DNA of 64,000 nucleotides from an uncultured Methanosarcinales archaeon (GTDB lineage: Archaea > Nanobdellota > Nanobdellia > Woesearchaeales > DATDXC01), in NCBI GenBank assembly GCA_964510025.1, contig CAZDZV010000008.1, positions 1 to 64,000 on the forward strand, in the 5' to 3' direction. Position numbers: made by a program. Within the stretch, counting starts at the first letter, position 1. Each line of letters opens with the position of its first letter. Below, piece by piece: positions 51,001 to 54,000 of the stretch.

Positions 51001-54000
51001 TGTAGTGCTATCAAGGATATTGCGGAAAAGACCGGCGTGGAGATGCGCGGACCTATACCTTTACCTACAAAAAAGCTCAAGATTACCACTAGAAAGGGGC
51101 CGGATGGTGGCGGGACTTCTACATGGGAAAGGTATGAGATGAGGGTCCACAAGAGGGTCATTGACCTAGGCCTTGATGAAAGGGCCTTGAGGCTCGTGAT
51201 GAGGGTGCATATACCTGAAGGCCTCAATATCGAGATAGAGATGATCGAGTAATCCTTAAGGTTAAATATTAAGTTTTTATAATTCTATTGCTATGTAGGT
51301 CATATGAGAGCATATCTGACTGCAGTACTGTTAGTTTTGGGGGGATGTACAATGGCAAATATCGATACTGCCACTTTTGCTGGCGGCTGTTTTTGGTGTA
51401 TAGAGGCTGCTTTCAGTCAGGTGGATGGAGTCAAGGAAGTCATATCAGGATATACAGGCGGAACTATAGAGAATCCAAGCTATGAGCAAGTGAGTAGCGG
51501 CAGTACAGGACATGTAGAGGCAGTGCAGGTATTATATGATCCTGAGAAAATCAGCTACGAGGAGCTTCTAGATATATTCTGGCAACAGATAGACCCTACA
51601 GATGCAGATGGCCAGTTCGTTGACAGGGGATCTCAATACAAAACAGCAATCTTCTATCATAATCAGGAGCAGAAAGAAAAAGCAGAAAAATCCAGAGATA
51701 GTATATCAGGAAGGTTCAACAAAGAGATAGCTACAGAAATAAGGCCAGCAGGAGAATTCTATAAGGCAGAAGAGTACCATCAGGATTACTACAAAAAAAA
51801 TAAGAAAAGATATGCTTTGTACAAAAAGAACTCAGGAAGGGATAATAATACCAAGAAAACCCGGAATGATCTGACTCCGTTGCAGTATAAGGTAACGCAG
51901 GAGGGAGGAACTGAGCTGCCTTTTGCAAATAGATACTGGAACAATAAGAAAGAGGGCATCTATGTGGATATCGTATCAGGCAAACCTTTGTTCAGCTCTA
52001 AGGATAAATTTCAGTCAGGCACAGGATGGCCCAGCTTCACCCAGCCCCTGGTAAATGAAAATATAATCGAGAAAGAAGACAGGACCTTAGGCATGAAACG
52101 AACAGAGGTCAGGACAGCTGAATCCCATCTGGGGCATGTATTTGAGGATGGCCCTGATGGGGGCAGAAGATACTGCATCAATTCAGCTGCGCTCAGGTTC
52201 ATACCAAAGGAGGATCTGGAAGAAGAAGGCTACGGTGAGTACAAGAATATTTTTGAGTAACTTTTATAAATCGCTGAAAATTCTTGGATTTTATGCCACG
52301 GTGGCACAACGCGGACAAATCCTTTGTCCGGGTGCAATCTGGTACTGCGCAGGACTGGAATGGCCGGCTTTGGCCGGTCGACACGATGAGCATCGTGCCA
52401 GCTATCCTGTTTCCGTAAAAGGATATCCCGGACAGCCTTTGTGTTCGGCAACAATCTCCCTATGGTCGACAAATGCTGGGGAAATTCAAACTTGCGGAGG
52501 CAGCTGCCTCCGGACTGAAAGTCCGGGCCGTGGCGCTTTTTTTTGGAAATATTTATATATGCTTTTCATAGATAGGCATAATATCAACCAAATTGATAAA
52601 ACTTAAGAAGCTATTGTTTTTTGACGGGGCAGGCTGGCTGCTGCTAGTGTTCTTGATTGCCATGGGGCTTATACTAGGCCATTCTAACTTCATAGTAACA
52701 GGTTCAGTACTGGGCATCTTATTATGCATCTCCCTAATTATCCACTTCAGCTCAAGGGACATAAAATCCTTCCTCAACAGGGTAGATGCAGAGAGCGAGA
52801 ACCCGATATTGGTGAGGGAGCTTATGGTCAGGGATGTTTACACAGTGTCAAAGCACGAAAAAGCCATAGATGCCGCTCAGAAGATGGTAAAGCATGATAT
52901 CGGCGGCATCATAGTAGCAGAGAAAGGCAGGCCAATAGGCGTACTCACAGAAAGGGATTTTATGCGAGAATTCTCAGCAAAAGGGAAAGCTGCCGGAAAT
53001 GTGCTTGTAATGGACATAATGACCAAAAGCCCAATCACTGTGGGCCCTGAAAAGGATATCTACGAGATTGCCAGGATCATGCTAAGGAGAAGGATAAAGA
53101 GGCTGCCGGTCGTCAGCAAGGGAAAGCTGGTAGGGAAGATAAGCCAAACTGACCTGATAGATAAGCTGGACGATATTAGGGTTGTGAAGCCGATCGTAGA
53201 CAGGCCATTCTTGACCAAAGAGCTTATGGTCAAGGATGTTATCACTGTTGGCAAAAAGGAAGGTGTGATGGATGCGGCAAAGAAGATGATGAGCCATGAT
53301 ATAGGCAGCATTATCGTAAAAGAGAAGAATCAGCCAATAGGCATACTTACAGAGAGGGACCTGATGAGGGAATTCTCAGCCAAAGACAAGAGCACAGAGA
53401 AGAGAGCTGTGAAGGATGCCATGACTTCTGATCTTATATGTGTAACCCCTATAACCTCCATCTCCAAGGTCATAGAGATAATGACAAAGCATAAAATAAA
53501 GAGGATTCCAGTTGTAGACAATGGCAAGCTTGTGGGCAAGATAAACCAGACAGACCTGGTAAGGCATCTTGGCGATGTTCAGATATCCAAGACAATAGAA
53601 AATAAGGTAAAGAGGGACAAGAAGTATGATCTGGAACCCGGGCTATATTTTGACAGGAATTGCTATGGTATATTTGCGGACCAGGTAAAGGCCGGCAAAT
53701 ACGGCCTGTGCCTGACAACGCTTGAGCCATCGGTTGTCAGCAAGAGATATGAGCTGAGGAGAACACCTATACTGGAGATAAGCTCAGATCTGGAGTATAC
53801 CTATGATACGATATTGAGGTTTATCTCAAAGGCAAAGAACCCTGTAGTCATGCTTGATGGCCTGGAGATGTTTATTGAGGATAATCCCATATCGGAGATT
53901 GCTGACTGGTTTTATAAATTGAAGGAAAAGGCAGCAAACAGAAACGCTATATTCCTGATGTGCATAGACCCGGACAACAGGGAGCATCTCGCCCTTATGC

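What a model noticed while it worked through the whole genome (the two positions that open the first line are those of the whole stretch)
52295..52535. Twenty hidden, intron-riddled tRNA genes: a recurrent T-loop (58/59) intron in 14, four introns in one gene, and only an [...]
Standard callers find about 20 tRNA genes in this 98%-complete genome; a hand search finds 20 more, missed or mis-typed because of non-canonical or multiple introns: 14 carry an intron at the same place in the T-loop (after TTCRA, 58/59) that forms a bulge-helix-bulge on the T-stem, and tRNA-Ser(GGA) at C8:52295-52535 has four inserts (D-loop, 37/38, 53/54, 58/59). I read this as T-arm introns having spread through a third of the tRNA set, all cut by the single 182-aa EndA (g00194, C1:208951-209499) that looks like a narrow-specificity alpha4 enzyme. 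New: a DPANN rival to Thermoproteales, a four-intron tRNA gene (printed maximum is three), an alpha4-type EndA serving five intron positions, a [...]
Evidence so far: ARAGORN -i 22 calls, several mis-typed; Rfam tRNA 18 over cut; nhmmer hits ending at model position ~59; sequences read by eye. T-loop-intron genes: C2 79849-79954(-) Ala GGC (G3:U70); C2 77820-77974(-) Met; C2 157895-157999(-) Asp; C1 45565-45677(-) Gly UCC; C13 5920-6026(-) Val GAC?; C16 25504-25641(+) Pro GGG; C16 27174-27359(+) Tyr; C23 6579-6696(+) Ile UAU; C3 141419-141540(+) Pro UGG; C5 55628-55730(+) Ile GAU; C8 56206-56316(+) Ser CGA; C12 ~8130-8248(-) Phe; C8 52295-52535(+) Ser GGA; C18 11194-11394(-) Ser UGA (three introns; T-arm inserts near-identical to Ser GGA). 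Shared form: T-stem, TTCRA, 13-65 nt, GAAAST, T-stem; TTCA pairs with TGAA. Signature regex: 34 hits, 12 in 10 tRNA g [...]
(Added by a program. Inside this text positions count along the whole contig: contig position 1 is position 1 of the stretch shown here. "Call 12" and the like, gene names such as g00115 and contig names such as C1 are that model's own, and its searches are not shown. The text may have been shortened before it was handed on; [...] marks where a part breaks off. The agent that wrote the report below was given it as the finding of a first reader that could run no searches.)

Follow-up and report, generated by a model that had tools for sequence, protein, structure and literature searches.

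The report
T-loop tRNA introns across Woesearchaeota
In this tiny uncultured archaeon, and in over half of the related genomes sampled, tRNA genes are hidden by introns in the T-loop (up to four introns per gene), yet the only splicing enzyme found is of a simple one-subunit type that is thought unable to cut such loosely shaped introns.

Summary
The genome is Woesearchaeota-like. It has 39 whole tRNA genes plus one split by an assembly gap, and 28 carry 45 introns. tRNA-Ser(GGA) has four: 15/16, 37/38, 53/54, 59/60.

Three novelty claims fall. ARMAN-2 (DPANN) already has 59/60 and 53/54+59/60 introns. An Asgard preprint reports up to five inserts per gene. Kaneta 2018 noted alpha4 EndAs in DPANN with disrupted tRNAs.

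What I did not find in print: the trait is order-wide. A 59/60 signature hits 237 of 401 genomes (reversed control about 71), and four-intron tRNA-Ser genes recur in three other families. Only 10 of 45 motifs here are strict, yet the single EndA has no beta subunit, no CSL/ASL loop and no L3-length insert. Best reading: a one-subunit EndA with intrinsically broad specificity. This is inferred; there is no RNA or enzyme evidence. Earlier scan notes found single such genes in other Woesearchaeota.

The parts
52263..52270 (+). TATA-like box 25 nt upstream of tRNA-Ser(GGA); promoter role inferred
   Evidence: sequence; similar AT boxes upstream of three other tRNA genes printed
52295..52535 (+). 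tRNA-Ser(GGA) gene, 241 nt, four introns, 86-nt class II mature tRNA
   Evidence: mature sequence aligns with T-arm-intronless orthologs
52295..52309 (+). exon 1 (positions 1-15)
52310..52337 (+). intron at 15/16, 28 nt; 4-bp central helix, outer helix 1 bp, inner helix offset by a mismatch
   Evidence: central-helix pair probability 0.42-0.76
52338..52360 (+). exon 2 (16-37), anticodon GGA at 52357-52359
52361..52403 (+). intron at 37/38, 43 nt, hBH by the contiguous-pair rule; two internal hairpins
   Evidence: pair probability 0.92-0.93
52404..52431 (+). exon 3 (38-53, with the long variable arm)
52432..52484 (+). intron at 53/54, 53 nt, HBh'; 91% identical to the Ser(UGA) copy on C18
   Evidence: pair probability 0.96-0.98
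52485..52490 (+). exon 4, only 6 nt (54-59); its first base is both the last bulge base of the 53/54 motif and the first central-helix base of the 59/60 motif
52491..52521 (+). intron at 59/60, 31 nt, hBH once 53/54 is removed; identical to the Ser(UGA) copy
52522..52535 (+). exon 5 (60-73), followed by a T run at 52537-52544
54052..54210 (+). tRNA-Glu(CUC) with an 84-nt 37/38 intron (54092-54175)
56206..56316 (+). tRNA-Ser(CGA) with a 26-nt strict 59/60 intron (56277-56302); missed by ARAGORN and Rfam

Best explanation
These are working tRNA genes of a Woesearchaeales archaeon. The precursor folds each exon-intron border into a bulge-helix-bulge or a relaxed form of it. EndA cuts after the second base of each 3-nt bulge and RtcB joins the exons. 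At 59/60 the invariant T54-T55-C56-R57 pairs with the intron end and the T-stem supplies the outer helix, so any tRNA can host an intron there; this explains why unrelated introns share one 3' end across the order. In Ser(GGA) and Ser(UGA) the 53/54 and 59/60 motifs compete for T54, so 53/54 most likely goes first. The enzyme is the single 182-aa EndA acting as a one-subunit (alpha4-like) complex whose catalytic subunit, related to the Nanoarchaeum alpha subunit, accepts relaxed motifs without a beta subunit, CSL or ASL. Candidate residues are the invariant K123 in the catalytic-His loop and K150-N151. Shown by computation: gene anatomy, motif geometry, order-wide spread, one EndA gene, loop lengths. 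Inferred: transcription, splicing, order of removal, tetramer, broad specificity, candidate residues.
For: 39 of 39 spliced genes called by ARAGORN; the interrupted genes are the only copies found for Asp, Phe, Tyr, Pro, Met, Ile, Ser, Ala, Val, Gly, Gln, Asn and Trp. 4-bp central helix in 14/14 at 59/60, 9/10 other non-canonical and 15/21 canonical, against 0.92, 0.72 and 1.8 expected from shuffles. Spliced Ser genes match orthologs without T-arm introns. RtcB present. One EndA; profile searches of 12,318 six-frame segments give at most 7.3-10.6 bits for anything else, and 3 of those weak hits that I checked were other families or gave only a sub-cut-off unrelated match, while a similar profile scores NEQ261 at 63.8 bits. 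One match over cut-off in 29 of 31 relatives and two in none, one in both single-contig genomes, but two in 4 of 5 TACK/Asgard controls. Model (pLDDT 95) fits M. jannaschii alpha4 best, 173 columns for 171 residues; best sequence hit is N. equitans alpha. Only 10 of 45 motifs are strict; 47 of 64 59/60 motifs in single-EndA-type genomes are hBH. A. fulgidus EndA barely cuts a 59/60 hBH intron unless given the ASL (PMC3488258). An all-catalytic Sulfolobus enzyme keeps broad specificity (cited in PMC2761253).
Against: No splicing, expression or enzyme data. ViennaRNA gives the 59/60 central helix a probability of 0.0 in Ser(GGA), even with the other introns removed, and under 0.3 in 8 of 14 genes, so that fold is not favoured by the energy model. 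'Relaxed' is my contiguous-pair rule; most of these introns have a hairpin 1-3 bases further in. A very divergent beta subunit could be missed: Pyrobaculum beta scores only 12.2 bits and the Aeropyrum beta chains were not listed at E 10; the genome is a 33-contig draft. The ARMAN-2 lysine that aligns with K123 (K241) was dispensable in that enzyme. Essential Ala(UGC) was not found, so the census is incomplete.
Confidence: 0.72

Rival explanations
1. The genes and introns are real, but the enzyme is an ordinary alpha4 EndA. The motifs that look relaxed behave as strict ones through non-canonical pairs and the nearby intron hairpin, or alpha4 narrowness was overstated from one hyperthermophile.
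For: The fold and loop lengths equal those of M. jannaschii EndA. 12 of 14 T-loop introns have the full 5-bp T-stem as outer helix and 13 of 14 have an internal hairpin.
Against: Ile(UAU) has a 13-nt 59/60 intron with no internal stem, the same class as ARMAN-2 Cys, which needed the ASL. 7 of 45 introns have 3 or fewer central pairs. ARMAN-4/5, with alpha4, have only strict introns in 15% of genes.
Confidence: 0.15
2. A hidden, very divergent structural subunit or other factor makes the enzyme an (alpha-beta)2 type as in N. equitans.
For: Closest solved sequence is the N. equitans alpha subunit; some beta subunits score weakly or not at all with my profile.
Against: No second homologue in this genome or in single-contig relatives; the same search finds both subunits in 4 of 5 TACK/Asgard genomes. 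The acidic L10 loop, shortened in N. equitans alpha, is intact here and in relatives.
Confidence: 0.08
3. The inserts are not spliced: they are decayed genes, mobile-DNA debris or assembly errors.
For: Five genes score within the null range of the motif-free scan. Small repeats duplicate tRNA ends elsewhere in this genome. A 156-aa ORF overlaps Ser(GGA).
Against: The genes are the only ones found for many amino acids; exons are intact and match orthologs; BHB geometry is far above chance; DNA contigs of public runs agree; the ORF has no Pfam match; 76 of 80 listed database matches to the signature parse as tRNA genes.
Confidence: 0.04

Closest known systems
ARMAN-2 (Ca. Micrarchaeum acidiphilum, DPANN) tRNA introns and epsilon2 EndA (PMC3239211, PMC3488258)
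   Same: 59/60 hBH intron of 13 nt (Cys), a 53/54+59/60 pair (Pro-GGG), over half of genes interrupted, Ile(UAU) without TiaS.
   Different: ARMAN-2 uses a three-unit enzyme with the ASL loop; here a single 182-aa unit without ASL. Here 14 genes have 59/60 and one has four introns.
L3-bearing alpha4 EndAs of DPANN and Hadesarchaea (Kaneta 2018, PMC5829648)
   Same: Single-subunit EndA in DPANN linked to more disrupted tRNA genes; one Woesearchaeota genome was included; undetected disrupted genes were predicted.
   Different: The text gives no positions, motif classes or order-wide survey (Fig. 7 not seen). Here the Tyr-His loop has no insert relative to M. jannaschii (spacing 10, against 16 in N. 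equitans and 15 in ARMAN-2).
Thermoproteales multi-intron tRNAs (via PMC4033280, PMC4090602, PMC8450103)
   Same: About 70% of genes interrupted; 53/54 and 59/60 are listed positions; adjacent introns removed stepwise.
   Different: (alpha-beta)2 enzyme with CSL, maximum of three, and similar introns across isotypes; here only one same-isotype pair shares intron sequence.
Asgard heavily interrupted tRNAs (PMC11291895; bioRxiv 10.64898/2026.10.13.758758)
   Same: Annotation misses introns; little copying between isotypes; four or more inserts per gene.
   Different: Heavier load (2.2 per gene, up to five, against 1.15 here); mostly two EndA paralogues; the preprint does not mention DPANN.
Methanocaldococcus jannaschii alpha4 EndA (PDB 1A79)
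   Same: Best structural match, same loop lengths, catalytic triad and acidic L10 on one chain.
   Different: Reported narrow (strict BHB only); the substrates predicted here are mostly relaxed and at nine positions.

Membership tests
Archaeal BHB tRNA introns | Removal restores a full cloverleaf with conserved bases | tested here: met
   39 of 39 called by ARAGORN after splicing; Ser orthologs agree
Archaeal BHB tRNA introns | 4-bp central helix between two 3-nt bulges holding the cuts | tested here: met
   38 of 45 introns have 4 of 4 pairs, about 3.4 expected; 7 have 3 or fewer
Archaeal BHB tRNA introns | EndA with Tyr-His-Lys triad and RtcB encoded | tested here: met
   Y118, H128, K159 conserved; RtcB at C28
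Archaeal BHB tRNA introns | Excision shown on RNA | not testable with these tools
   no RNA holder listed
alpha4 EndA (M. jannaschii type) | One single-unit gene, no structural subunit | tested here: met
   a very divergent beta cannot be excluded
alpha4 EndA (M. jannaschii type) | Catalytic triad and acidic L10 loop on the same chain | tested here: met
   acidic L10 at 167-169 kept in the relatives aligned
alpha4 EndA (M. jannaschii type) | Homotetramer | not tested
   no complex prediction was obtained
alpha4 EndA (M. jannaschii type) | Narrow specificity: strict BHB only | tested here: not met
   by substrate census, not by assay: 10 of 45 motifs strict, 24 introns non-canonical
Broad-specificity EndAs ((alpha-beta)2, epsilon2) | Separate or fused structural unit | tested here: not met
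Broad-specificity EndAs ((alpha-beta)2, epsilon2) | CSL (L1) or ASL (L2) insertion in the N-terminal domain | tested here: not met
   gap against S. tokodaii and ARMAN-2 at that site; none in the 27 rows covering it
L3-bearing DPANN alpha4 EndAs (Kaneta 2018) | L3 loop insertion before the catalytic His | tested here: inconclusive
   Tyr-His spacing 10, as M. jannaschii; 16 in N. equitans, 15 in ARMAN-2, mostly 8 in multi-unit enzymes; an invariant Lys-Pro is present; the paper's Fig. 7 was not seen
Thermoproteales-type intron transposition | Near-identical introns in different isotypes of one genome | tested here: not met
   among 45 introns only two pairs reach a score of 0.65, both Ser(GGA)/Ser(UGA)

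The most novel reading that the evidence does not exclude
Woesearchaeales are a further, order-wide intron-rich archaeal lineage centred on T-loop position 59/60, with recurrent four-intron tRNA-Ser genes and a 15/16 position I did not see listed. All of it is processed by a one-subunit EndA that gained broad specificity without L1, L2 or an L3 insertion: a new route to relaxed-motif cutting that breaks the rule tying such substrates to (alpha-beta)2 or epsilon2 enzymes, and a likely cause of some 'missing' tRNAs in DPANN genomes.
Probability: 0.55. Interest if true: 0.72.

Novelty: new variant of a known kind. Interest (0 to 1): 0.56.

Why it matters
Reviews state that only (alpha-beta)2 and epsilon2 endonucleases with a special loop cut relaxed motifs efficiently. 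This order offers a small single-gene enzyme and dozens of natural relaxed substrates, so the rule can be tested with one protein prep. It also matters for annotation: ARAGORN misses 18 of 39 genes here and Rfam all 14 T-loop genes. A 2026 survey of complete Nanobdellota genomes found 26-54 tRNAs per genome, lacked Trp in 30 of 123 Woesearchaeales, and discussed loss, detection failure or split genes, not T-loop introns. Whether tRNAscan-SE 2 finds these genes is untested.

Tried and rejected
58/59 numbering: rejected by geometry. Second EndA subunit: PF12928, tblastn and three profiles found none; three weak hits were DUF655, DUF371 and a sub-cut-off TackOD1 match. Protein-coding reading of the Ser(GGA) stretch: no Pfam match. 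Cross-isotype intron copying: none; own 59/60 introns match those of other genomes only by one 10-nt hit. The 53/54+59/60 pattern was not enriched as a raw count (18 matches, 17 in the reversed control by my hand count); only parsing showed 5 of 16 non-own loci to be real. The looser pattern had high background (15 of 29 loci were T-loop-intron tRNAs). Ala(UGC), Ala(CGC), Val(CAC), Pro(CGG), Arg(CCG) and one Leu(CAN) were not found by profile, motif or BLAST searches; assembly gaps are a likely cause. No RNA holder listed. First structure model was poor (pLDDT 64) and was not used. The bacterial promoter/terminator scan found nothing and does not cover archaea. Tetramer prediction gave no result. 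PMC7714728 passages held nothing on DPANN. Supplementary Data 4 of PMC11291895 lay beyond the stored text, so the peer-reviewed Asgard maximum per gene is unchecked; preprint supplements were not seen.
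Full report
VERDICT. The T-loop position is 59/60, not 58/59. The claims of a first DPANN case and a record intron number do not hold. What remains is an order-wide trait paired with an enzyme type that, by the published rule, should not handle these substrates. All evidence is from DNA and computation.

THE GENOME. G000 has 1.70 Mb in 33 contigs, 97.7% complete. Named relatives of its EndA are Woesearchaeota or Nanoarchaeota, so I call the order Woesearchaeales by inference.

CENSUS. ARAGORN gives 13 calls without and 22 with its intron option; Rfam gives 18 over cut-off. I wrote a tRNA profile parser that allows inserts anywhere outside the acceptor stem and uses no splice motif; its base preferences were hand-set from recall. 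On both strands, 34 genes score above the best reversed-genome hit (56.9) and 5 more lie at 47.8-56.4 among false hits. The false hits in that range come mostly from a 73-76% GC stretch at the end of C5, which I left out afterwards. A second, motif-aware parse placed the borders; I then slid anticodon-loop inserts to 37/38 by hand and corrected one by a base. Result: 39 genes, 28 with introns, 14 with several, 45 introns (21 at 37/38, 14 at 59/60, 2 at 53/54, 2 at 15/16, 6 at about 18/19 to 22/23; D-arm numbering depends on the model). ARAGORN of 39 spliced products. A 40th gene, Leu, is split by the gap between C3 and C1. Six anticodons, including essential Ala(UGC), remain unfound.

POSITION AND MOTIF. 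With T54-T55-C56-R57 as central helix the 5' bulge is 58, 59 and the first intron base, so the cut follows 59. All 14 genes give four central pairs at 59/60, one or two at 58/59 and one at 60/61; shuffling intron letters gives 0.92 expected. For Ser(GGA), 58/59 would put G at 59, whereas five Ser genes of relatives without a T-loop intron have A there. By the rule of at least two contiguous flanking pairs, 10 of 45 introns are strict, 19 hBH, 6 HBh', 3 central helix only, and 7 have three or fewer central pairs. Against this reading, ViennaRNA gives the 59/60 helix a low probability in 8 of 14 genes and zero in Ser(GGA).

THE FOUR-INTRON GENE. Ser(GGA), 52295-52535, has introns at 52310-52337, 52361-52403, 52432-52484 and 52491-52521. 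The first three motifs form in the predicted precursor (0.42-0.98). The exon between the last two is 6 nt; T54 serves both motifs and the T-stem closes only after 53/54 is gone, so I infer 53/54 is cut first. Ser(UGA) on C18 shares three positions, with 91% and 100% identical T-arm introns, most simply by conversion between the two genes (inference). Logan contigs of one DNA run cover the gene without differences and a second run of the same study covers its 5' part.

ORDER-WIDE. A narrow 59/60 signature that catches 3 of the 14 genes here matches 237 of 401 genomes of the order (535 matches); the reversed control has 81 matches in 71 genomes by my hand count. Nine of these genomes are unpublished (G122, G164, G182, G184, G186, G275, G295, G349, G385); without them the count is 228 of 392. 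In a phylum sample it hits 66 of 125 in the order and 10 of 36 in other orders of the class (control 3 of 36). Kin are not independent. With a looser pattern 15 of 29 loci parsed as T-loop-intron tRNAs of many isotypes. So 59/60 with this 3' end is also used outside DPANN, as geometry predicts. A pattern for 53/54+59/60 was no richer than its control, but 5 of 16 non-own loci are tRNA-Ser genes with both introns, and three of them, in G165, G021 and G015 (three other families), have four introns (the 37/38 motif in G015 has only two central pairs). A 15/16 intron recurs in Gly(UCC) of L066.

THE ENZYME. One EndA gene is found by Pfam, protein, tblastn and profile searches. Among 31 genomes, 29 have one match over cut-off and none has two; two single-contig genomes and two with four-intron genes have one. 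The same search gives two in 4 of 5 TACK/Asgard genomes. Limits: Pyrobaculum beta scores only 12.2 bits with a profile of this family. The model (pLDDT 95) matches M. jannaschii alpha4 best (TM 0.86/0.92); by sequence N. equitans alpha is slightly ahead. There is no CSL or ASL insertion. The catalytic Tyr-His spacing is 10, as in M. jannaschii, against 16 and 15 in N. equitans and ARMAN-2 (counted by hand). The loop carries an invariant Lys-Pro, and Lys-Asn precedes the conserved Arg152, as in N. equitans alpha; that Lys-Asn occurred in 28 of 55 single-unit and 0 of 80 multi-unit rows. In 64 listed loci titled Woesearchaeota, Nanoarchaeota or 'Methanosarcinales', 47 of the 59/60 motifs are hBH, while 11 of 12 TACK/Asgard ones are strict (the latter are mostly related Thaumarchaeota genes). 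RtcB is present.

WHAT IS KNOWN. ARMAN-2 has Cys with a relaxed 59/60 intron and Pro(GGG) with 53/54+59/60 (PMC3239211, parts 2-3 of 5). A. fulgidus EndA barely cuts that Cys intron without the ASL; ARMAN-2 K241 and K244 are dispensable; alpha4-bearing ARMAN-4/5 have only strict introns (PMC3488258, passages). Kaneta 2018 reports L3-bearing alpha4 EndAs in DPANN with more disrupted genes and expects undetected ones (PMC5829648, passages, section 16, part 2 of the supplement; Fig. 7 not seen). Three introns is the maximum in PMC4033280 and PMC8450103 (passages); a preprint gives up to five for Asgard (10.64898/2026.10.13.758758, parts 1, 2, 4 of 7 and passages; supplements not seen). Also seen: PMC11291895 passages, PMC12397907 part 1 of 7, PMC6379350 passages, PMC4090602 passages and section 4 (15/16 is not in its partial list), PMC3728597 passages, PMC2761253 passages, 10.64898/2026.05.13.725050 passages. 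Seven searches showed no paper describing an order-wide 59/60 load in Woesearchaeales; I read only some of the listed papers and the library lacks most subscription journals, including Sugahara 2008 and Fujishima 2010, known to me only through citations. Sprinzl numbering and the cut rule are recalled and checked against the canonical 37/38 case.

EARLIER SCAN NOTES. Other agents described single T-loop or D-loop intron genes in Woesearchaeota and the two Arg genes of this genome; none of the notes returned covered the order-wide survey, and a words search for four-intron Ser genes returned nothing.

SCORE. Known kind of intron, known positions, no record. The new parts are the breadth in this order and the mismatch between enzyme type and substrates, which one assay can settle. 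Interest 0.56.

Noticed in passing
G000 C5, about 96,000-105,668 (outside the window): GC jumps from 41-45% to 73-76%: foreign DNA or a chimeric contig end; it holds ARAGORN's spurious Gly(ACC) call.
   Followed up: no
G000 start of C3 and end of C1, both minus strand: Two halves of one Leu(CAN) gene with at least three inserts; the anticodon exon falls in the gap, which suggests the two contigs are neighbours.
   Followed up: partly
window 54097-54119; G000 C16:25445; L010; L152: The Glu(CUC) intron shares 22 of 23 bases with a tandem unit that duplicates the 5' end of tRNA-Pro(GGG); the same core follows the D-loop of tRNA-like starts in two other loci. tRNA ends are also duplicated at C5:55442 and C2:157478/157560. 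A small mobile module may seed long introns.
   Followed up: partly
G000 C23:6579-6696: Ile(UAU) present, no Ile(CAU) and no TiaS match, as described for ARMAN.
   Followed up: partly
G000 C6:80271, C13:12098, C1:368: All three Thr genes have G in place of T55 and lack the usual GG in the D-loop; the Thr(UGU) of G002 is alike.
   Followed up: no
L066, L068, L070 and 15 other loci: Records titled 'uncultured Methanosarcinales'; the 16 genomes checked are 0.9-2.7 Mb and 14 show one EndA match; probably mislabelled Woesearchaeales (inference).
   Followed up: partly
L084: A record titled Doudnabacteria holds an archaeal-type Lys(CUU) gene with a T-loop intron; likely bin contamination.
   Followed up: no
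matches listed (e.g. G031, G045, G127, G316, G341, G379, G464): One similar 59/60 intron sequence recurs in several families, and G334 has two identical ones; some introns may be old or move between genes in other genomes.
   Followed up: no
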